64,000 nucleotides of DNA from a virus: the IMG/VR virus record IMGVR_UViG_3300037247_001890, positions 64,001-128,000 of that record; one strand, 5' to 3'. Position numbers and translations under genes: made by a program. Of the stretch, positions 3,109 through 61,358 are shown in pieces. The notes below the pieces were generated by a model. The model did no database searches, had not been told where the DNA came from, and saw only the letters and a program-made list of their open reading frames with translations. Positions within the stretch are counted from its first letter, which is position 1. Each line of letters opens with the position of its first letter.

Positions 3109-3267
3109 ATGGCTAGAGTTAAAGTCTATCCTCTGGGTAAGAAAGGACCGAGAGAAATCAGTCCAGGAGAAATAAACGCTGAGCTTGCTAAGCGTTCCGA
3201 AATCACACTAAAATTTTTGCAAAGAAAAGGCAGGATAAAGAAAAGAGAATCAAATTTGGATGATTAA
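3109..3267 (+). CDS. small basic hypothetical protein (52 aa, MARVKVYPLGKKGPRE...)
   Basis: read by eye; GAGAGGA RBS upstream and terminator downstream; absent from the ORF track. Confidence 0.55.
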   Translation: MARVKVYPLGKKGPREISPGEINAELAKRSEITLKFLQRKGRIKKRESNLDD

Positions 3268-3328: not shown

Positions 3329-6300
3329 TTAATAAGTATATCTGGGATCCTTAGCAAATTCCAAACCATACATATATGCTGGGAGTGGATTGTGACCATG
3401 TATATTTGATGCCATTCTAGTAGATGCCATATCTTTGATAGTGTTTTTTAAATGAACATTAGACAATCTATCTAACCAATCTTGCCCGTCGTCGGTAAGC
3501 ATCTCTATTGATTTGAAATATTCGTTGAATTGTGCAGGTGTTTTATTATCTCTGATCAATGCTTTATTTTTTTTCTTGATGTAGCTCGCTGATATTTTGT
3601 CTCCTATAAGCAAATCTGTATCCCCAGGATCTAAAATTTCAGCATTGTCTGTCACACCACGAATTGCTGTTTCAAAAGTTTTTTGGAAAAATTTATTTTC
3701 ATAAATATTATCCAGTTCTTTAACCATTTCTCGTTGGGCATATTTAAAACTCTTTAATTCAGCTAACTCTTGTGGCTTAATAACTCCTGTTGATATTTTG
3801 TCACCTTTAATTACTGATTGATACCTTTTTACTGTGGGTTCTAAATTTAATGGAACATAATGTGTTATTCCATTTATGAGTATATCTTTTCCACCAATAG
3901 GACTTTCTTTTATACTTTCAATTTGACCGTCAGTTTGTGCCAAGGTTGCTTTATTTGGCACAGTTTCAGGAACTTTGAATATTTGTTCTAATCTTTTAAA
4001 ACCGGCTAAAGCACTTCCACCTGAATCGACTGCCCCGCCTGTATGAAAAGTACGCATTGTAAGTTGAGTACTTCTTTCTGATATTGCTTGCCCATCTAAA
4101 ACCCCAACATTGGTACCAATAGGTGCAAAATCGCCACCTGGCATCAAACCATAGCATTTTTGACAAACACCCTGTGGAGTTTCACATGTCAAAGGACTTC
4201 TGACCACCACAATATTCATTTTAGCTTTTTTTAGCTTCTGTTGAATGTCTAGAGTTATAAGTTGTGCTGCTTCTACAATACCTTCTATATCGAGAGCAGA
4301 TGTGCGATCAAGAATATTTTTATCTGTAATATCAAATTCTATACCATCATTAGTGCCGCAATCTTCTTCTATTACTAATAATTTCCTTGTATTTGCAAGA
4401 AGTCTTTTATTCAATTCACCCGATTCTTGTGTGTTAACTGCACGATCAATAGTACCTTTTCGTACCCCATAAATACTGTTCCAATAATCAAAACTGTCCA
4501 AACCCTCACCATAACTTTTTGTTATAGGAATTGGTATTTCGTTTCCTTTAGTATCTTGAAGAATTCCAGGCATTCCTATCATTTGAATGACGCCTTCTTC
4601 ACTTTTAAGTGCACCTGATTTTAGCCATTCATAAAATTTGTTGGAATCTGAATATTTTTTATAAAGTTCTTTTTTTAATTCCACCTTAGCATTTTTATAA
4701 GCTTCGATTTTTTTCTCGTCAGACGAGTTTGGACCTAGTGTTGATTTCCATTTTTCTAGTATGTTTTCTCTTATAGAATGATCTACCTGCAAATCATTGA
4801 TGGAGACAGTACTCCCGCGAAGATGACCATAACGATTGCCAAGATCTTTTAATCCTGAAATAACCTGGTCAAAGTTTTCTGGAGTTTCATATGCTATTTT
4901 TTCTAATATAGAATTCACTTTTCTACTATCAAATAAGTTATCATAATCTCGAAATTGTTTTGGCAATATAGAATTCACTAGTTGAATACCTATAGTTGTT
5001 TTTTTACCATTTAAACTGAAAACATCTGTCATGCCAATACCAGCATTTTCTGCATCTACTACAGTCTTAAATCTTTTTTTGGTATCTTTACCAGGAACAG
5101 TTAAATAATATAAGCCTAGTTGATAATCTTTACTTATTGCGTGTACTACGGAGTTATCACCAGCTTTAAATACATTTTTAGATGGTAGCATACCCCATGC
5201 CTCATCTACAGCTTCATTTGTTACGGGAACATGGACGGCCATAGCATCGCCATCATAATCCAAATTAAAACCCGCATTGATTAATGGATTTGTTTTAATA
5301 TCTTTACCATCTACTAATATGGGCTTGAAGGCTTGTATTCCGTGTTTATGTAGAGTTGGTGCCCTGTTTAGCAATACGGGACGATTTTCCATTACTTTTA
5401 AGAGTGCTTTTCTTGAACCTATACCATTATCTTTTATATTTTCTAGAGCTTCCAAAGGTTTAAATCCCATTTGAAGCATTTCTTTGATAATAAAAGGTCT
5501 GTAAATAACTTTTGCCATTTCTACGGGAATTCCGGCTTGGTCCAGACCCAATGATGGGTCTACAGTAACAGTAGATCTTCCAGACACATCTTGCCTCTTA
5601 GTCCATACACTTCTTTGTGCAAAACCTTCTTTTGGAACAGATCCTGCAATTGTTTTTACTATACCTGCACTTCTTTTCATTTGTTGATGAAGTGGTTCTT
5701 GTAATCCAACAGCTTCTTTCAAAATACGGTACATATCTTTTCTAGCGGTTCTAGAGAGTTCTTCATCGAATCCCAAATCTTTATTTGTTTTTATGGCGTA
5801 TGCTGTTTGTGCAATTCTAGTGTAATGATGATTAATAGGACTTACTTGTAAATCTCCTGACGGTAATGGGTAAATGGGTCTAAATTTTGCTGGCATTACA
5901 GGAAATTTACTTATCATCAAATCAGTAGGTTTAAAACCAAAAGTTTTTAATGCTTCAAGATGCTTATACTTTTTGTTCAATAGATTACGTTTTGATTTTG
6001 GAGCTTCTTTTAATTCTGCTTTTGTTTTTTTAATTTCGCTTTTCAGATTTATTTCGTTTAATTTTTTTTGTATTAACTTATTACCAGTGACGCCATCCTC
6101 TGAATACGTTTCATTCATTATTTCATCAAATTTTGGACGGGTTAATCCTGTTATTTTTATTATAGCATCCTCAAATATTGGATGTGGCATTTTGGTGTTT
6201 AAATTAATATGTGACCACTTGCTGCCTTGCATACCTCCTACGACATCGGGATCGAACAAACCACCTTTGATTGGTGCTAGATTTTTACCACGTAATACAT

Positions 6301-9300
6301 CCCTGGCGTCTTTTATTTCCCCACCAGACAGTTTAGCAAGCTGCTTATCAGTAAATGGTGATGTAAGTAGATAATTACCGTTTTTAGTTACGTTTACACC
6401 AGCATTTTGTAAATGAGCTACAAGCTTATCAAATACAAAATTTGTTTTAGGAGTTGGCAATGGAAGTCCAACTTGTAATGCTTGCCATATTTCGTCATTC
6501 TTTTGACCTTTTATCAATGTTGCATCACGTAGATTTTTTGTAGCTCCATGTGCTATCATAGCATACATTGTCATTGGATCAATACTTTGACCACCAGTTT
6601 TTCCGGCTGCAGGCTGTAAATTCAAATCATACGAACTACGTTCTCGGGCTTTGTGTTTTTTTTCAACATCATGCATTAAACGTAAGATATATTGATTACC
6701 CGTGAAGATTTTATTTTCGAATGGTTTCCCATCTTTTCCGTCAAAAAGCTGTTCTTCTACCTCAATTTTCTCTTGTTTTAATTTAGCAGTTATATCGGCT
6801 AAAGAATTCTCTCCACTAAAATTTTTTACTATATATTTTTTACCAACTTTTTTGGCCCATTTACCAGCAGCAGTTTCAAGCAACTGACTGGGATTAATAC
6901 GGCCGGGCACACCGGCTGGGCTCATAATAAGATCTATACGTTTTCCGTCTTTATTATGTGGAGCATCACTATTAGGAATTATTTTTGTGATAATACCTTT
7001 ATTACCATATCTTCCAGATATTTTATCACCGACTACCATTGGATTTTCAACGACAATCCAGATATTTATACTTTTTCCTACACTTCTGACATATTTTACT
7101 ACACCTGTTTTATCTTGTGGCCACTCTAAACTTTTGTCGATGTGAGCAAGAAATGATGCTTTACCCATCTTTTTTACCATCATTTCAGTTAAAGTCATAT
7201 CACGTGGTTCCATATAAGAAATGAGGATATCACCTGATTCAACTTTTTCGCCTTCCTTTATAATTCCGTTTTCATCTAATTTAGAGAAATTTTTAGGGGT
7301 CAATTTATCAGGAAATATAATTCTAAATTTAGTTTTATCAGTCATACCATTTTTTGCTTGATACAAACTTTTTTTGACCATACTTGAAGAAGTGAATTTC
7401 TTAGCAAATGATTCAGTAACTACCACGCCATCTTCGAAATTAAAACCTTTCCATGGCATGTATGCCACATTGACATTTGATCCAACAGCCAGAATTGAGT
7501 TTCTTGAAAAATTATGATCAGCTAGGACTTGCCCCTTTGTAACTTTGTCCCCAACTTTTACCGAAGGTGTGGAGTGTAAGTAGGAATTTTGATTCAAAGG
7601 AAAATAATCATATAAACCAATTTTGACACTTTTTCCATTATTATTTTTTAATACTATATAATCTTTATCTATATATGTTATTTCGCCTGCTTGTTCTGCG
7701 TATGGTTGTAAATAAGAACCTGTGATGCCTTCCCACGTATTTTTATCATTAAAATGTGATTGAACAAGGGGTTCTTCACGATTAACAAGACTAACGGCTT
7801 GTGTCAACATTCGGGATCCCATACTAGCTCTGTTACCTTGGGTATTGGCTAAAAATGGAACTAGGTTGGATGTATAAGAGTATATACTGGCAGGATCGAT
7901 TAAAAAATATTCTACTTCACTTGGTTTGAATAGGGTTTGTTTTCCCTGATAATAACCTTTTACTACTCTGCCTTTTGGTTTTATGATTCCATTTACTATT
8001 TTATACTGATCAGGAAAACCTAATTTTATATTCCACACTTCCGCAGCCATCTTATCTTCATAGGACTTTGCTAAATGTTTTTCATCAACACTGGCACCAC
8101 TTTTCAATAAAGGTGTTAAAATATTTTTTTTCTTTTTTATAACTTCTGTAGCCAGTGGAAGTGTGATACCTACTTTGAAACTATCTGGTGTTGCAATCGG
8201 ATCTAAAAAACCTATGTGTGATGGATGAAGGTCACGTGCTTCGTTGGTGATTGCGTGTCTACTTTGAATACCTCCTGTACCCATGATAGTAGTCTTACGC
8301 CATTCATTTAACATTTCTAGGGGATTAGTTTGCGGCGTAGTCGAAGATAAATCAGCCTGTGGTCCAACAAAGAAATTTCTTATAGCATCACCATAATCGC
8401 TTGAACTAATTATTTCTCTTAATTTGTCTTTATTTTCTGAACTTCTGGCAATTCTGGCCACTATTTTTGGTGTATTTTTTTCAAAATATGCATTAAGTAG
8501 ATCATCGACTCCATACAGATCTTTAAAAGTTAAAGAATCTCTTTGATCTGGCTCCTCTTGACCTCTTCTTACTTTCAGAATTTTCTCTGAGGTTGCTAAT
8601 AAGGCTTCAGGTGTTACGCTTTCAAAACTTTTACCAAGGGTTAATTTGGTTGTGAATGGGCTAACTTTAGTATTATCAAAATATTCTTTTAAACCTTCTG
8701 CGGCTTTGTCGTAAGAAACTTCTTGATGTGTCAATTGCTTATAAAGATCAATTACTATTCTTTCTTGTTTTCCTATGGAGGTTCCTACATTTAATCTATA
8801 AACCTCTTCTCCCCAAGCCTTTTTCATTTCATTATCAGAAATGCCAAGAGCTTTCAAAATACCATATAGCTCATAATGTTTATTTTTTCTAGTAAGGAAA
8901 AAAATTCTTTTTTCTGGATCTAAATCCATTTCAAAGTTATAACCCTTTTCCAAATTAAATTGAGATACTATTTGTCCATTGTTTTTTACTCTTGTATAAA
9001 TTCCAGGTTTTAAGCGAAATTGATTCATTGTATGATATTCATTGCCATCTATGATAGTAGAAAATCTATTAGTCATCATTGGTATCGAACCAATTTTTAA
9101 TCTCGCAGAATCCAGAGTTTTGCCAGTCTCATTATCTATTAAACGCATAGTTGCATGTACAGGATAATCCCATGACTTGCCTGCTAGTTTTGCTTTTTTT
9201 TGATCTGGAAAATCGTCGGGAGTTATAGACTTATCAGCTACTTCTAGACTTTCTAATTCTATGGTTTTTTTGGAACCTTTAATTGGAAACTGAGATTTGA

Positions 9301-9376
9301 TCGAATTAGTAATAGAATTTCTAATTTCTTCATTTCTAATTTTAATGCTAAAAGCGTCTCTTACGCTATTTGCCAT
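3329..9376 (-). CDS. rpoBC: single-chain fused beta-beta' DNA-directed RNA polymerase
   Basis: beta motifs GDKISGRYGNKG and PGRINPSQLLE; beta' motifs NRAPTLHKHGIQAF, catalytic FNLDYDGD, TQLTMRTFHTGG (trigger loop) and Zn site C..C..CQKCYG; no stop between the halves. Confidence 0.95.
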   Translation of the reverse strand: MANSVRDAFSIKIRNEEIRNSITNSIKSQFPIKGSKKTIELESLEVADKSITPDDFPDQKKAKLAGKSWDYPVHATMRLIDNETGKTLDSARLKIGSIPMMTNRFSTIIDGNEYHTMNQFRLKPGIYTRVKNNGQIVSQFNLEKGYNFEMDLDPEKRIFFLTRKNKHYELYGILKALGISDNEMKKAWGEEVYRLNVGTSIGKQERIVIDLYKQLTHQEVSYDKAAEGLKEYFDNTKVSPFTTKLTLGKSFESVTPEALLATSEKILKVRRGQEEPDQRDSLTFKDLYGVDDLLNAYFEKNTPKIVARIARSSENKDKLREIISSSDYGDAIRNFFVGPQADLSSTTPQTNPLEMLNEWRKTTIMGTGGIQSRHAITNEARDLHPSHIGFLDPIATPDSFKVGITLPLATEVIKKKKNILTPLLKSGASVDEKHLAKSYEDKMAAEVWNIKLGFPDQYKIVNGIIKPKGRVVKGYYQGKQTLFKPSEVEYFLIDPASIYSYTSNLVPFLANTQGNRASMGSRMLTQAVSLVNREEPLVQSHFNDKNTWEGITGSYLQPYAEQAGEITYIDKDYIVLKNNNGKSVKIGLYDYFPLNQNSYLHSTPSVKVGDKVTKGQVLADHNFSRNSILAVGSNVNVAYMPWKGFNFEDGVVVTESFAKKFTSSSMVKKSLYQAKNGMTDKTKFRIIFPDKLTPKNFSKLDENGIIKEGEKVESGDILISYMEPRDMTLTEMMVKKMGKASFLAHIDKSLEWPQDKTGVVKYVRSVGKSINIWIVVENPMVVGDKISGRYGNKGIITKIIPNSDAPHNKDGKRIDLIMSPAGVPGRINPSQLLETAAGKWAKKVGKKYIVKNFSGENSLADITAKLKQEKIEVEEQLFDGKDGKPFENKIFTGNQYILRLMHDVEKKHKARERSSYDLNLQPAAGKTGGQSIDPMTMYAMIAHGATKNLRDATLIKGQKNDEIWQALQVGLPLPTPKTNFVFDKLVAHLQNAGVNVTKNGNYLLTSPFTDKQLAKLSGGEIKDARDVLRGKNLAPIKGGLFDPDVVGGMQGSKWSHINLNTKMPHPIFEDAIIKITGLTRPKFDEIMNETYSEDGVTGNKLIQKKLNEINLKSEIKKTKAELKEAPKSKRNLLNKKYKHLEALKTFGFKPTDLMISKFPVMPAKFRPIYPLPSGDLQVSPINHHYTRIAQTAYAIKTNKDLGFDEELSRTARKDMYRILKEAVGLQEPLHQQMKRSAGIVKTIAGSVPKEGFAQRSVWTKRQDVSGRSTVTVDPSLGLDQAGIPVEMAKVIYRPFIIKEMLQMGFKPLEALENIKDNGIGSRKALLKVMENRPVLLNRAPTLHKHGIQAFKPILVDGKDIKTNPLINAGFNLDYDGDAMAVHVPVTNEAVDEAWGMLPSKNVFKAGDNSVVHAISKDYQLGLYYLTVPGKDTKKRFKTVVDAENAGIGMTDVFSLNGKKTTIGIQLVNSILPKQFRDYDNLFDSRKVNSILEKIAYETPENFDQVISGLKDLGNRYGHLRGSTVSINDLQVDHSIRENILEKWKSTLGPNSSDEKKIEAYKNAKVELKKELYKKYSDSNKFYEWLKSGALKSEEGVIQMIGMPGILQDTKGNEIPIPITKSYGEGLDSFDYWNSIYGVRKGTIDRAVNTQESGELNKRLLANTRKLLVIEEDCGTNDGIEFDITDKNILDRTSALDIEGIVEAAQLITLDIQQKLKKAKMNIVVVRSPLTCETPQGVCQKCYGLMPGGDFAPIGTNVGVLDGQAISERSTQLTMRTFHTGGAVDSGGSALAGFKRLEQIFKVPETVPNKATLAQTDGQIESIKESPIGGKDILINGITHYVPLNLEPTVKRYQSVIKGDKISTGVIKPQELAELKSFKYAQREMVKELDNIYENKFFQKTFETAIRGVTDNAEILDPGDTDLLIGDKISASYIKKKNKALIRDNKTPAQFNEYFKSIEMLTDDGQDWLDRLSNVHLKNTIKDMASTRMASNIHGHNPLPAYMYGLEFAKDPRYTY

Positions 9377-9396
9377 CTACATTTATCCTTATTTTT

Positions 9397-9406
9397 TGGA
9401 ATAAGA
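9397..9406 (+). promoter_or_regulatory. class B motif TGGAATAAGA
   Basis: at the divergence point, heading the + strand accessory block. Confidence 0.5.
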
Positions 9407-9422
9407 TGATTGTGTACTATTC

Positions 9423-9454
9423 TAAATATACTGAAGAAGGTACATGAAATCAAG
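9423..9454 (-). promoter_or_regulatory. class A promoter CTTGA-N19-TATATTTA for the RNAP gene
   Basis: exact consensus, ending about 47 nt upstream of the RNAP start. Confidence 0.7.
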
Positions 9455-9539
9455 TATTATCTACTTTTACCCTCCTAACAATGGAATATATTGCCTAACA
9501 AAATATTCGCCCCAAGGAAACAAACAGATAATGCTATAA
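9444..9539 (+). CDS. 31-aa small ORF (MKSSIIYFYPPNNGIYCLTKYSPQGNKQIML)
   Basis: GAAGG RBS; short, could be a leader peptide or spurious. Confidence 0.3.
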   Translation: MKSSIIYFYPPNNGIYCLTKYSPQGNKQIML

Positions 9540-9650
9540 CGGGGAGTGAAAACCGTAGAAGGTCTTCAAAGAAGACCGTACCAAAAAATATAAACTGCCA
9601 AAGTTCCGTTAATCACAAGGTGCTGACCAAAAGATAAAAACAGTTTAATG

Positions 9651-9687
9651 GGGTCTTTTGATAATCAAAAGACCCTTTTATTTTTTT
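9651..9687 (+). terminator. intrinsic terminator
   Basis: GGGTCTTTTGA-TAA-TCAAAAGACCC followed by a T-rich tail. Confidence 0.75.
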
Positions 9688-9715
9688 ATTAAAAGTAGGA
9701 GTTGATAATCTAAAA

Positions 9716-10312
9716 ATGTTATGTAGCTATTGTCAGCAAGTAGAGCTGACTCTCGAAGAAGCCAAGTCCGCAAAAAAAGGATGCATGTTTTGTGCAATAG
9801 ACACATCAATAACAATGGCGCGGGCAACTGGACTTAAGGTAGCAATGCCAAAACCGATCGAATATGGACGTACACAACAAGAATATGACGACTATATGCG
9901 AAGAATAAGTAAAAAGGCATCTCATACCGATTTGAAACAAAAGATGCAAGATGCAGCTGATACTCTTGAGCCACCCGGCCAAGATACAGACACAGATACA
10001 AAACAAAAACAATACGTACAAAGACCCGGACAACCATATGACTTTTCGAATGATCACATAGGGCAATTATTAAAAGATTTTGATCCAAATGATCCTCCTC
10101 ACGAATATGAAGAAATGCTAAGTGATGATTTTTTTATTAAAGCATCAGTGCCAGGTCCATTAAATGATAAAATGGATGCAATGATCGCTAAAGAGATCAA
10201 AAGATTATTTACAACAATTGTTTATTTAAAAACTCAAGGATCAGCGTGGGAAAGATATTTCCGTGATCCTGAGGAACCAACTGGACCACAAGGCGTGTTT
10301 CCACCGACGTAA
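9716..10312 (+). CDS. hypothetical protein with N-terminal CxxC...CxxC Zn ribbon
   Basis: CSYC...CMFC; AGGAG RBS. Confidence 0.6.
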   Translation: MLCSYCQQVELTLEEAKSAKKGCMFCAIDTSITMARATGLKVAMPKPIEYGRTQQEYDDYMRRISKKASHTDLKQKMQDAADTLEPPGQDTDTDTKQKQYVQRPGQPYDFSNDHIGQLLKDFDPNDPPHEYEEMLSDDFFIKASVPGPLNDKMDAMIAKEIKRLFTTIVYLKTQGSAWERYFRDPEEPTGPQGVFPPT

Positions 10313-13485: not shown

Positions 13486-14415
13486 ATGACTATTTACGAA
13501 TTATTAAACGAAGATCCGGATACGGTAAAGCATATTATAGAAAATATTGATAGATATTATCTGTCTTACGGAATCAAAAAAAGACGCGGACGATCTCGAA
13601 GAATAGATGCGCCCCAAGACAAACTAATCGAAATACAAAGAAAAATATTATATAAAATTTTATATAGGTATAAACCCCATCCAATTGCACATGGCTTTGT
13701 GAAAAAAAGGGGACCAAAAACAAATGCAGAAGAACATGTAGGCGCTGATCTTCTTATTACAATAGATATAAAGAATTTTTTCAATTCAATTACTGAGAAA
13801 CAAGTTTATTCTACTTTTGAGTATCTTTTTGATAGAAGATTGCCGTACGAAAAAGCAACTTCTAACGATATTAATATCATAGTCAAACTATTGACATATA
13901 GAGGCCGAGTACCACAGGGAGCAATTACAAGTCCAGCAGTCTCTAACTTATTCATGCTTCCATATGATAAAAAATTAAAAAAACTCCAACCAAAATATAA
14001 AATTAAAATAACACGATATTGTGATGATATTGCAATAAGCTCAAAAAAGAGTAAGGGATTAAAAGTACATGATATTCTAGATGATGTCAGAGAGATTTTA
14101 AGACCTGCAGGATTAAGAATGAATAAAACAAAAACAAAAGTAAGAAAACGATATCACAGAATGAAAGTTACAGGTATAATAGTAAACGAAAAGACTAATA
14201 TACCAAGAGAGAATTGGAGAAATTTCAGAGCATGCCTACACAATATCAAAGTAAAACAACCTATGGAAGAAGTTTCAGAGCTAGATCTGCAAAAGATGAG
14301 AGGGTACATAGAGTGGGTCAAGGTAATAAACCCTATACGTGGGAAACAGTTCTTGACAGAATTCGAGGAAATCTTAAATATGCAAAAGAAATTTTTCACA
14401 ATCATATTGACGTAA
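13486..14415 (+). CDS. retron-type reverse transcriptase
   Basis: 309 aa; RRIDAP, AHGF, retron region-X NAEEH (NAxxH), DIKNFF, PQGAITSP, catalytic YCDD, region-Y VTG and C-terminal RACLHN...GYIEWV..INP.RG. Confidence 0.92.
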   Translation: MTIYELLNEDPDTVKHIIENIDRYYLSYGIKKRRGRSRRIDAPQDKLIEIQRKILYKILYRYKPHPIAHGFVKKRGPKTNAEEHVGADLLITIDIKNFFNSITEKQVYSTFEYLFDRRLPYEKATSNDINIIVKLLTYRGRVPQGAITSPAVSNLFMLPYDKKLKKLQPKYKIKITRYCDDIAISSKKSKGLKVHDILDDVREILRPAGLRMNKTKTKVRKRYHRMKVTGIIVNEKTNIPRENWRNFRACLHNIKVKQPMEEVSELDLQKMRGYIEWVKVINPIRGKQFLTEFEEILNMQKKFFTIILT

Positions 14416-59960: not shown

Positions 59961-61358
59961 ATGCCTTTAATAGTAATAAAAAATCAAGCAACTGTGGCTG
60001 GAATTAACGATACACAAAAAAGCATCATCAAAGAAAAATTGACGATACCAAATCCCAGATATGTACAAGTAATTAATCTTGGGAAATCATCATTTGGCAT
60101 AGCTAAGGACATTACTTTTTATGATAAACGTCCCGATAGTCTAATTGTCCCTGTAGGATTCGTGCCAACGCTTTTAAAATTTATCCCGATAAAACCGGGA
60201 GATTTAATAGATGCTAGATTTGAAGCTCCTCCTATTGTCAATTGGAAGTTTAAAGGTAAATTATTAGCCTATCAAGAAAAAGCTGTGACTGCTATGACTG
60301 ACAAAACTATAGGCGTAATACAAGCGCCGACTGGGTCAGGCAAGACGGTAATGATTGTTAATCATGTCATACGCAGAAAACAACCTACTTTGGTCATGGT
60401 TAACACAATAGAGTTGGCTAATCAAATGATTAAAAATTTCGCCAAGTTTACTAATAAGAAAGAAGACGATATAGGTTTCATCGGGAGCGGAATATGGAAA
60501 ATAAGAGGAGTGACTATCACAATATTGCAAACCATGATTCGCCTTAGTAAAACAGAATTTCGTTTTCTTAATAACAGTTTTGGACAAGTTATAGTTGATG
60601 AAGTTCACATTATACCGGCAGTTACTTTCTATGACGTGATAACGAGATTAGATGCTAAATATAAATTTGGGTTTAGCGCGACGCCCGAAAGAGATGATGG
60701 CCTGACAGATGTGATTCATTTTGCCACAGGACCACAAATACACGAACTTTCATTAAATGATGTAAAAGACAAAATACTTATACCAACAGTAAGAAAAATA
60801 AGTACTAGTTATTATTTCCCCTTATGGAATAGCGATGAATATGCAGCCATGGTGGATGATCTGATAGAAGATGGGCAAAGGAATTCGCTCATACTGGACA
60901 CTGTAAATGAGTACAAAGGAAAACAAATGGTAGTGCTTACAACAAGAGTTAAACATGCTACCTTTCTAACAGAACAACTTAACAAAAGAGGTCACAAAGC
61001 AGAATACCTGGTATCAAGATTACCGCATCCTACAAAGCATGGTAAGTTTAAAGCTATGCCTAAAAAGCAACGAGCGGCCGTAATAGAAAATTTAAACAGC
61101 GGTAAAACAAAAATAGTGGTTTCCACTTTCAGTTTATTTTCAACCGGCATTGATATCATTAATTTAGAAGTATTGTTTCTAGCTGGTCCTACACGGTCCA
61201 AAATTAAACTTAAACAATCAATAGGGCGCATTATGAGAAAGGCAACTATTAAAAAAACCCCAGAGATCGTTGACTTTCAAGACAAGCAAATTGATTTATT
61301 AAAGCATCAAGCCTATGCCAGAAATAAAATTTATAAATATTTGAAGAATGTGGAATAA
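59961..61358 (+). CDS. superfamily 2 helicase (DEVH; UvsW/XPB-like)
   Basis: APTGSGKT, DEVH, SAT, TGID and QSIGRIMR. Confidence 0.9.
   Translation: MPLIVIKNQATVAGINDTQKSIIKEKLTIPNPRYVQVINLGKSSFGIAKDITFYDKRPDSLIVPVGFVPTLLKFIPIKPGDLIDARFEAPPIVNWKFKGKLLAYQEKAVTAMTDKTIGVIQAPTGSGKTVMIVNHVIRRKQPTLVMVNTIELANQMIKNFAKFTNKKEDDIGFIGSGIWKIRGVTITILQTMIRLSKTEFRFLNNSFGQVIVDEVHIIPAVTFYDVITRLDAKYKFGFSATPERDDGLTDVIHFATGPQIHELSLNDVKDKILIPTVRKISTSYYFPLWNSDEYAAMVDDLIEDGQRNSLILDTVNEYKGKQMVVLTTRVKHATFLTEQLNKRGHKAEYLVSRLPHPTKHGKFKAMPKKQRAAVIENLNSGKTKIVVSTFSLFSTGIDIINLEVLFLAGPTRSKIKLKQSIGRIMRKATIKKTPEIVDFQDKQIDLLKHQAYARNKIYKYLKNVE

What the first reader, a model, noticed from the sequence alone, without database searches (positions are those of the whole stretch)
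3329..9376. Streamlined single-chain beta-beta' RNA polymerase with a variant active-site motif
Seen: the beta C-terminal helix (FDKLVAHLQNAGVNV) runs straight into the beta' N-terminus near 6385. At 2015 aa it is far shorter than bacterial beta plus beta'. The catalytic loop reads NLDYDGD rather than NADFDGD. The N-terminal beta' Zn ribbon is missing (GGLFDPDVVGGMQGSKWSHI), while the second Zn site is kept. No alpha subunit was seen in the window. Established: phiKZ-like phages use split subunits, and rpoBC fusions are known from Helicobacter and Wolbachia. Inference: an alpha-independent, possibly virion-packaged RNAP of a little-studied phage group.
Basis: partly seen in the sequence, partly recalled or inferred. 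Interest (0 to 1): 0.8.

Follow-up and report, generated by a model that had tools for sequence, protein, structure and literature searches.

The report
Single-chain beta-beta' phage RNA polymerase
One 2,015-codon gene of an uncultured, roughly 170-200 kb tailed phage encodes both large subunits of a bacterial-type RNA polymerase as one slimmed-down protein; hundreds of related phages share this design, and I found no paper that describes it as a fusion.

Summary
Every sequence observation is confirmed. Window 3329-9376 (-) is one open 2,015-aa frame (225.6 kDa): a complete beta module joined directly to a complete beta' module.

- The catalytic loop reads NLDYDGD.
- The beta' N-terminal zinc ribbon is cleanly excised.
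- The four cysteines of the second zinc site are the protein's only cysteines.
- The whole 169-kb phage record has no alpha or omega gene.

The fusion is not an assembly artefact. At least 120 clusters from independent assemblies share it, and about 950 representatives at 50% identity match a query spanning the junction. The family includes Salmonella phage Arash and Vibrio phage D69. It forms one clade outside all 22 sampled bacteria and is about 27% identical to each phylum.

NLDYDGD is one of many variants in this family, (N/G)xDxDGD, with the three aspartates invariant.

Alpha-independence and virion packaging remain inferences. In Arash the homologue is the protein with most spectra in virion mass spectrometry.

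The phage sigma resembles the primary sigma of Bacteroidota. All sigma-docking surfaces of the polymerase have diverged, so which polymerase that sigma serves is open.

This scan found the same family before on other DNA, with the same conclusion. I rate it a new variant of a known kind.

The parts
3329..9376 (-). Whole gene: 2,015-aa single-chain beta-beta' RNA polymerase (225.6 kDa, pI 9.2), stop codon at 3329-3331
6389..9376 (-). Beta module (aa 1-996). It lacks the E. coli-type inserts bi4, bi9 and bi11. The fold matches bacterial and plastid beta.
   Evidence: Pfam Rpb2_2/3/6; map to Salmonella rpoB; model pLDDT 85.6 with best Foldseek hits 8gzh_C and 9ujk_C
8279..8356 (-). Equivalent of the rifampicin-binding segment (aa 341-366). 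E. coli positions Q513, F514, D516, H526 and S531 read S, T, P, E and T.
   Evidence: alignment with bacterial beta; the effect on the drug is an inference
7151..7201 (-). Flap-tip helix region (aa 726-742). It is present but diverges from the sequence that is invariant in the sampled bacteria.
6995..7030 (-). Beta catalytic barrel motif GDKISGRYGNKG, with the two active-site lysines K785 and K793
   Evidence: invariant in 43 of 43 homologues; shared with bacteria
6356..6391 (-). Fusion joint (aa 996-1007). The last beta strand, a turn K-N-G and the first beta' strand are predicted to form a beta-hairpin.
   Evidence: gap-free and conserved in 43 homologues; alignment with bacteria; model strands 994-999 and 1002-1007 with pLDDT above 90
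3332..6355 (-). Beta' module (aa 1008-2015). It lacks the zinc ribbon, SI3 and the C-terminal tail.
   Evidence: Pfam Rpb1_1/2/3/5; map; model pLDDT 88.6, pTM 0.85; Foldseek TM 0.80-0.85 to bacterial beta'
6206..6265 (-). Scar of the deleted beta' zinc ribbon (aa 1038-1057)
   Evidence: 32 residues with the four Cys of bacterial beta' 64-95 are absent in all family members
5699..5842 (-). Clamp helices (aa 1179-1226). The coiled coil is kept, but the basic residues that are invariant in the sampled bacteria are replaced.
5246..5266 (-). Catalytic loop NLDYDGD (aa 1371-1377). D1373, D1375 and D1377 are invariant in the family.
4382..4489 (-). Bridge helix (aa 1630-1665)
4154..4363 (-). Second zinc site: C1673, C1731, C1738 and C1741, the only cysteines of the protein
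3977..4096 (-). Trigger loop (aa 1761-1800) with TQLTMRTFHTGG and no SI3 insert
9377..9715 (.). Divergent intergenic region upstream of the gene. AAGGA lies about 10 nt before the ATG. One sigma-70-like match at 9453-9425 (-) is no better than chance. A 12-bp hairpin with a T-run lies at 9650-9676 (+).
3145..3164 (-). Terminator-like hairpin 165 nt downstream of the stop codon (a candidate only)

Best explanation
The gene encodes a working catalytic core of a bacterial-type (two-barrel, beta/beta') RNA polymerase made as one polypeptide.

Shown:
- The C-terminal strand of beta is joined through a three-residue turn to about residue 18 of beta'.
- All catalytic elements are intact: the two beta lysines, the DxDxD triad, the bridge helix, the trigger loop and the second zinc site.
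- The lineage-specific inserts, the beta' zinc ribbon and the beta' C-terminal tail are gone.
- The design is conserved in a large monophyletic phage family that branches outside the sampled bacteria.

Inferred:
- The covalent tether replaces the alpha dimer as the means of bringing beta and beta' together, so the enzyme needs no alpha or omega (my odds about 0.6).
- The enzyme transcribes phage genes independently of the host polymerase and is probably insensitive to rifampicin, because the drug pocket is rebuilt.
- It may be packaged in the virion and delivered with the DNA (about 0.5).
- Promoter choice comes either from the phage's own sigma-70-family factor (about 0.5) or from a factor not yet recognised.
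For: - Open frame and domain order.
- Junction conserved without gaps in 43 homologues of 35-91% identity, from NCBI, JGI, ENA and Logan assemblies.
- A 161-aa junction-spanning query found 957 representatives at E<=1e-10, and the best 150 each match in one stretch across the joint.
- Catalytic motifs conserved with bacteria.
- Confident folds (pLDDT 88.6 and 85.6) whose best structural matches are bacterial beta' and beta.
- IQ-TREE places the family (20 rows) and the bacteria (22 rows, including a Bacteroidales and Salmonella) on opposite sides of one branch, SH-aLRT 100. Identity to every phylum is 26.8-27.5%.
- G+C of the gene (0.34-0.35) matches the surrounding genome.
- No alpha or omega in this record, and no alpha in the complete genomes of Arash and D69.
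- A sigma gene is present in all four related phage genomes examined.
- In Arash the homologue gp206 has the most spectra in virion mass spectrometry (3,516; 128 unique peptides). gp216 and sigma gp10 were also detected: PMC10585845.
- Alpha-less phage polymerases have a precedent in phiKZ and AR9: PMC7598289.
Against: - No experiment exists for any full-length member.
- Absence of an alpha gene does not exclude use of host alpha. By my own knowledge, cellular RpoBC fusions still use alpha.
- The record is only 85% complete.
- The Arash 'virion' proteome lists 116 of 272 proteins, including ribonucleotide reductases, so carry-over of abundant cytoplasmic proteins is possible.
- In this window the gene is a stand-alone unit among DNA-metabolism genes and is not inside the structural block.
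- The surfaces that dock sigma in bacteria (flap tip, clamp helices, zipper, zinc ribbon, lid) have all diverged. The phage sigma is 45-47% identical to Bacteroidota primary sigma, which fits a sigma aimed at the host enzyme just as well.
- No promoter motif could be defined.
Confidence: 0.75

Rival explanations
1. The single chain is a non-virion (middle or late) polymerase that still assembles on the host's alpha dimer, and perhaps omega. The fusion only ensures 1:1 stoichiometry, as in Helicobacter and Wolbachia.
For: The fold and domain set are fully bacterial-like. By my own knowledge, cellular RpoBC fusions keep alpha. In this window the gene is not in the structural block. The Arash virion preparation looks permissive.
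Against: The enzyme is only about 27% identical to any bacterial beta/beta'. Relatives infect hosts as different as Salmonella, Vibrio and probably Bacteroidota, so a conserved fit to host alpha would be demanding. The conserved beta' C-terminal motif (E. coli-type 1346-1359, which I recall as lying near the omega site) is lost. Alpha-less phiKZ and AR9 enzymes exist.
Confidence: 0.25
2. The phage sigma does not work with this enzyme. It redirects the host polymerase, as in T4-like or SPO1-like phages, while the single-chain enzyme starts transcription with an unrecognised phage factor or on its own.
For: The sigma is 45-47% identical over its full length to Bacteroidota RpoD. That is as close as or closer than to the sigma of another fused-polymerase phage (41%) and far closer than to the D69 sigma (24%). 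All bacterial sigma-docking elements of the polymerase have diverged. Sigma and polymerase genes lie about 80 kb apart.
Against: Sigma genes co-occur with the fused polymerase in all four genomes examined. Arash sigma gp10 was detected together with the polymerase in virions. In the separate phage lineage of Cobetia phage Carin-5, sigma sits directly upstream of beta' and beta. The Bacteroidota -7 motif TAnnTTTG is not enriched upstream of phage genes.
Confidence: 0.4
3. A recently captured or contaminating cellular rpoB-rpoC, that is, a host gene rather than a phage lineage.
For: Sequence and fold are closest to bacterial beta and beta'.
Against: The family is monophyletic, outside all 22 sampled bacteria and equidistant from them. 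G+C matches the phage genome. The surrounding genes are phage genes, including a portal. Homologues sit on 100-230 kb phage contigs and in cultured phages.
Confidence: 0.02
4. An assembly artefact or a dead gene: two genes joined by a sequencing error.
For: None found. Reads could not be consulted.
Against: The same uninterrupted 2,014-2,015-aa frame occurs at 80-91% identity in four independent sources. The joint is conserved in hundreds of clusters. Catalytic residues are invariant.
Confidence: 0.01

Closest known systems
RNA polymerase of Salmonella phage Arash (gp206 + gp216) and of Vibrio phages D69, D148 and D181
   Same: They fall in the same clade at about 31% identity. They share the beta-to-beta' joint, the loss of the zinc ribbon, a sigma gene and the absence of alpha. 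The Arash proteins are abundant in virion mass spectrometry.
   Different: In those phages beta' is cut after the catalytic domain, at about aa 1442-1464 of this protein, into a 1,525-aa chain (beta plus N-terminal beta') and a chain of about 606 aa. Other genes or a homing endonuclease lie between them. Here everything is one chain. The paper annotates gp206 as 'beta' and does not mention a fusion.
mReC, the multi-subunit-RNAP-encoding Caudovirales (Weinheimer and Aylward 2020, PMC7481178)
   Same: They are uncultured tailed phages with recognisably bacterial-type beta and beta' that branch outside cellular clades.
   Different: Every phage row in the two parts of their Supplementary Data 2 that I read lists two different genes for beta and beta', and some contigs carry two sets. 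Their filter required NADxDGD, which NLDYDGD fails. I did not test whether the two groups are sister lineages.
phiKZ / AR9-type jumbo-phage multisubunit RNA polymerases
   Same: They are phage-encoded beta/beta'-type enzymes without alpha and omega. One set is virion-packaged, and infection is rifampicin-resistant (PMC7598289).
   Different: They are split into four or five polypeptides, come in two sets per genome, have no sigma homologue and are much more divergent. PHROG matches are only 1e-8 to 1e-26, against 1e-100 to 1e-116 for the two nearest PHROGs, both of unknown function.
Cellular RpoBC fusions (Helicobacter, Wolbachia)
   Same: The beta C-terminus is tethered to the beta' N-terminus in one polypeptide.
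   Different: By my own knowledge these are full-size host enzymes with a zinc ribbon, alpha and omega, and they sit within their own bacterial lineages. The phage family lies outside all sampled bacteria.
Single-chain two-barrel phage polymerases (crAss-like gp66, YonO, the P23-45 tape-measure-fused RNAP)
   Same: One polypeptide carries both catalytic barrels, and some are virion-delivered.
   Different: Those are minimal, RdRp-like enzymes that COG and Pfam models of beta/beta' do not recognise (PMC7481178). This protein matches four Pfam beta/beta' domain models above their thresholds and superposes on whole bacterial beta and beta'.

Membership tests
Cellular-type beta/beta' RNA polymerase superfamily | Beta barrel with the two active-site lysines (GDK..GR.GNKG) | tested here: met
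   aa 783-794; K785 and K793 are invariant
Cellular-type beta/beta' RNA polymerase superfamily | Beta' barrel with three aspartates (DxDGD), a bridge helix and a trigger loop | tested here: met
   D1373, D1375 and D1377 are invariant; bridge helix at 1630-1665; trigger loop with TQLTMRTFHTGG
Cellular-type beta/beta' RNA polymerase superfamily | Pfam Rpb2 and Rpb1 domains above gathering score | tested here: met
   Rpb2_6 225 bits, Rpb1_2 93.5, Rpb1_5 87.7, Rpb2_3 42.6. Rpb1_1, Rpb1_3 and Rpb2_2 fall below their cut-offs.
Bacterial RNA polymerase core (alpha2-beta-beta'-omega) | Strict NADFDGD catalytic loop | tested here: not met
   The loop reads NLDYDGD. The family as a whole shows (N/G)xDxDGD.
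Bacterial RNA polymerase core (alpha2-beta-beta'-omega) | Beta' N-terminal zinc ribbon (four Cys) | tested here: not met
   It is deleted in all 43 aligned members.
Bacterial RNA polymerase core (alpha2-beta-beta'-omega) | Alpha dimer and omega as partners | tested here: inconclusive
   There are no alpha or omega genes in the phage record and no alpha in Arash or D69. Use of the host subunits could not be tested.
Bacterial RNA polymerase core (alpha2-beta-beta'-omega) | Placement within the bacterial beta/beta' clade | tested here: not met
   The family lies outside a clade of 22 bacteria, SH-aLRT 100. Archaea and eukaryotes were not sampled.
Fused beta-beta' polymerase family of large tailed phages (Arash-like plus metagenomic) | Continuous, conserved beta-to-beta' joint | tested here: met
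Fused beta-beta' polymerase family of large tailed phages (Arash-like plus metagenomic) | Monophyly with the other members | tested here: met
   Support of 100 in FastTree and IQ-TREE
Fused beta-beta' polymerase family of large tailed phages (Arash-like plus metagenomic) | Presence in the virion | not testable with these tools
   Only the Arash proteome bears on this.
mReC (Weinheimer and Aylward 2020) | Separate beta and beta' genes that pass an NADxDGD filter | tested here: not met
   Here there is one gene with NLDYDGD. The mReC rows I read in Supplementary Data 2 all have two genes.
mReC (Weinheimer and Aylward 2020) | Phylogenetic membership in their clade | not tested
   Their sequences were not at hand.
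phiKZ / AR9-type jumbo-phage RNAPs | Beta and beta' each split into several polypeptides, two sets per genome, no sigma | tested here: not met
   There is one chain, one copy in the record, and a sigma is present.
crAss / YonO / P23-45-type single-chain two-barrel RNAPs | Minimal RdRp-like architecture not recognised by beta/beta' models | tested here: not met
   Full beta and beta' architecture

The most novel reading that the evidence does not exclude
The 225-kDa chain is a complete, self-folding RNA polymerase core that needs neither alpha nor omega. It would be packed in the capsid and injected to start rifampicin-insensitive transcription. If so, a large and so far undescribed phage lineage would show that a covalent beta-beta' tether can replace the universal alpha assembly platform. 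It would also show that the 'invariant' NADFDGD loop and the beta' zinc ribbon are dispensable for a bacterial-type enzyme.
Probability: 0.35. Interest if true: 0.8.

Novelty: new variant of a known kind. Interest (0 to 1): 0.62.

Why it matters
Every characterised cellular-type RNA polymerase is built on an alpha (or Rpb3/11) platform. The only known exceptions are the heavily split phiKZ and AR9 enzymes.

A natural one-gene enzyme without alpha or omega that still has the full bacterial architecture would be useful in three ways:
- It would be the simplest system for studying assembly, zinc-ribbon function and the tolerance of the catalytic loop.
- It would be a handy one-gene 'multisubunit' polymerase for biotechnology.
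- It would be a good marker for a widespread group of 150-230 kb phages.

Cultured relatives exist (Arash on Salmonella, D69 on Vibrio), so the key questions can be tested directly.

Tried and rejected
- Complex prediction of the phage sigma region 1.2-2 with the clamp segment (aa 930-1345) gave no verdict. I do not use it either way.
- The search for related loci with the single protein in viral contigs found nothing.
- Promoter search: no k-mer beyond the Shine-Dalgarno sequence is enriched in 91 upstream regions. Sigma-70-like matches around the gene equal the shuffled expectation, 31 against 30.7. The Bacteroidota -7 motif TAnnTTTG is not enriched, 3 against 4.6.
- Rfam found nothing in the window.
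- Accessory subunit next to the gene: there is no co-directional small ORF upstream.
- Conserved neighbours in two relatives are a reverse transcriptase and a glycosyltransferase, not a sigma or an alpha-like gene.
- SF2 helicase lead: Arash gp217, next to gp216 and detected in virions, shares only generic helicase similarity with window 59961-61358 (E 1e-4). D69 gp266 shows none. No orthology is claimed.
- An apparent 2,598-aa 'fused' frame in an Acidimicrobiaceae MAG turned out to be rpoB and rpoC separated by one in-frame stop.
- Literature: searches and five papers gave no description of this fused family.
Full report
**Observation.** The minus-strand ORF 3329-9376 is open for 2,015 codons under the standard bacterial code. 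It encodes a 225.6-kDa basic protein with only four cysteines. Pfam places Rpb2 domains at aa 123-927 and Rpb1 domains at aa 1102-1896, so beta comes first and beta' second.
- FDKLVAHLQNAGVNV at aa 982-996
- GGLFDPDVVGGMQGSKWSHI at aa 1038-1057
- NLDYDGD at aa 1371-1377
- the four-Cys site at C1673, C1731, C1738 and C1741

The window lies in a 169,274-bp IMG/VR virus record estimated 85% complete. That record has one polymerase gene. It has no alpha (PF01000, PF01193) and no omega (PF01192). It has one sigma-70-family gene about 80 kb away, with regions 1.2, 2 and 4.

**Is the fusion real?**
- A word-indexed search returned at least 120 clusters of about 2,000-2,090-aa proteins with the same domain order, at 35-91% identity, on contigs up to 228 kb. 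Four near relatives of 2,014-2,015 aa come from NCBI, Logan, JGI and ENA.
- In an alignment of 43 intein-free members, the stretch aa 960-1075 has no length variation at the joint.
- A 161-aa junction-spanning query against 1.84 billion representatives gave 957 hits at E<=1e-10. The best 150 all match as a single stretch across the joint.
- Reads could not be consulted. Independent assemblies make an artefact very unlikely.

**Anatomy.** I aligned the protein to Salmonella rpoB and rpoC, which I take to share E. coli numbering, together with 21 other bacteria. The protein lacks the following segments:
- bi4 (beta 225-342)
- bi9 (beta 937-1048)
- bi11 (beta 1123-1176)
- SI3 (beta' 943-1129)
- beta' 146-176
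- the beta' C-terminal tail
- the 32 residues of beta' 64-95 that carry the zinc-ribbon cysteines

The flanking strands on either side of the zinc ribbon are retained, so this is a clean excision.

The joint connects the equivalent of the bacterial beta C-terminus (...GINIEL) through K-N-G to about beta' residue 18. AlphaFold models built from the family alignment are confident. The beta' half with the joint has pLDDT 88.6 and pTM 0.85. The beta half has pLDDT 85.6 and pTM 0.77. Foldseek finds only bacterial (and, for the beta half, one plastid) beta' and beta chains among the 50 best hits for each half (TM 0.80-0.85 and about 0.70). No phage polymerase appears among them.

The catalytic elements are shared with bacteria: GDKxxGRxGNKG, the three aspartates, the bridge helix and the trigger loop.

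The segments that are invariant in the 22 bacteria but not shared by the phage family are these:
- the beta flap and flap-tip helix
- beta 1262-1281
- the beta' zipper, zinc ribbon, lid and clamp helices
- the end of the bridge helix
- the beta' C-terminal motif

By my own knowledge, the flap tip, zipper, zinc ribbon, lid and clamp helices are where sigma docks, and the beta' C-terminal motif lies near the omega site.

The rifampicin pocket is rebuilt. The equivalents of Q513, F514, D516, H526 and S531 read S, T, P, E and T. From this I infer insensitivity to the drug.

**The catalytic loop.** The family consensus is NADFDGD. NLDYDGD marks the subclade of this protein, found in 9 of the 43 aligned members. 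Among the 150 representatives, more than 20 variants of (N/G)xDxDGD occur, and the aspartates never change. It is one instance of a family-wide relaxation.

**Relatives and phylogeny.** The nearest cultured phages are Vibrio phages D69, D148 and D181 and Salmonella phage Arash, at about 31% identity. Beta and the N-terminal, catalytic part of beta' form one protein of about 1,525 aa in these phages. The rest of beta' is a second gene.

FastTree and IQ-TREE (LG+G4, about 1,940 columns) give the same picture:
- The fused family, including the Arash type, falls on one side of a branch.
- All 22 bacteria fall on the other side, with SH-aLRT 100. The sample includes Patescibacteria, Actinomycetota, Bacillota, Gammaproteobacteria, a Bacteroidales, Margulisiibacteriota and others.
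- Identity to each phylum is 26.8-27.5%.
- Cobetia phage Carin-5 and a Rhizobium phage have unfused beta and beta' on separate long branches.

Archaea and eukaryotes were not sampled, and the root is unknown.

The published mReC lineage (PMC7481178) is the nearest concept. In the two parts of its Supplementary Data 2 that I read, every phage row lists separate beta and beta' genes. Its filter demanded NADxDGD. I found no paper that describes the fused family. The Arash paper calls gp206 'beta'.

**How it probably works.** The shown facts support a catalytically competent single-chain core. Three further points are inferred.

1. Alpha-independence. It rests on gene absence in this record and in two complete relatives, on the tether, and on the precedent of alpha-less phiKZ and AR9 enzymes.
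2. Packaging. It rests on Arash. There gp206 has the most spectra of all virion proteins, and gp216 and sigma gp10 were also found. That preparation contained 116 of 272 proteins. In Arash and D69 the gene follows the portal gene. Here it is a stand-alone unit between DNA-metabolism genes, about 10 kb from the portal gene.
3. Initiation. The phage sigma is 45-47% identical over its full length to the short primary sigma of Bacteroidota. It is 41% identical to the sigma of another fused-polymerase phage and 24% to that of D69. It therefore looks host-derived and points to a Bacteroidota host. Given the diverged docking surfaces, it may serve the host enzyme instead. I put this at even odds.

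**Verdict.** This is a genuine, widespread and, in the library I searched, undescribed single-chain variant of the phage-encoded bacterial-type polymerase.

Earlier follow-ups of this scan reached the same conclusion on other genomes. My checks were made independently of them. What this window adds:
- the NLDYDGD subclade
- the exact map of what was deleted
- the sigma-surface divergence
- the Bacteroidota-like sigma

Noticed in passing
homologues of window 3329-9376 (for example P0004, P0010, P0034, L005:9001-17553): 78 longer homologues carry 109 insertions of at least 120 aa. The insertions cluster at the most conserved sites: just after the catalytic loop (about aa 1378, n=30), in the trigger loop (about aa 1777, n=27) and before GDK (about aa 782, n=19). 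Pfam flags intein splicing, LAGLIDADG and Hom_end domains in many of them. This polymerase family is an intein hot-spot; the window's own copy has none.
   Followed up: partly
G000 146883-147665 (+), outside the window (L004:1393-2175): The phage sigma (260 aa) is 45-47% identical over its full length to the primary sigma RpoD/SigA of Bacteroidota (Prolixibacter, Maribellus, Marinilabiliales, Bacteroidales), with a shorter region 3. This points to a Bacteroidota host and a host-derived sigma. Positions aligned to sigma-70 residues 403, 406 and 413 differ consistently from those of Bacteroidota sigma. By my recollection these residues contact the clamp helices.
   Followed up: partly
window 13486-14415 (+); L108:4997-5968: A reverse transcriptase gene of about 300 aa and a glycosyltransferase gene lie within a few kb of the polymerase gene, divergently oriented. 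The same holds on two related contigs whose polymerases are 44-47% identical, so this neighbourhood is conserved.
   Followed up: partly
window 9650-9676 (+): A perfect 12-bp hairpin is followed by TTTATTTTTT, in the divergent intergenic region between the polymerase gene and the gene at 9716. It looks like a terminator, but no upstream plus-strand gene would need one.
   Followed up: no
window 3329-9376 (-): The 2,015-aa protein has exactly four cysteines, all of them ligands of the retained zinc site.
   Followed up: yes
L086 (Cobetia phage Carin-5, PV155638.1): A different phage lineage has an operon in the order sigma, beta' (1,083 aa), beta (927 aa). The order is reversed relative to bacteria, and both large genes are annotated 'beta'.
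   Followed up: no
L005, L006; proteins P0032, P0110, P0127: Phage contigs carrying this polymerase or its sigma are binned into MAGs labelled Bacteroidales, Acidimicrobiaceae, Brocadiales, Halobacteriota and Thermoplasmatales. These taxonomic labels should not be read as hosts.
   Followed up: partly
L109:2262-3680 (Arash gp217); contig of P0052: An SF2/SNF2-type helicase gene directly follows the polymerase gene in Arash, where it is abundant in the virion proteome. One also lies about 700 nt downstream on the P0052 contig. It could be a RapA-like partner. Orthology with window 59961-61358 is not established.
   Followed up: partly
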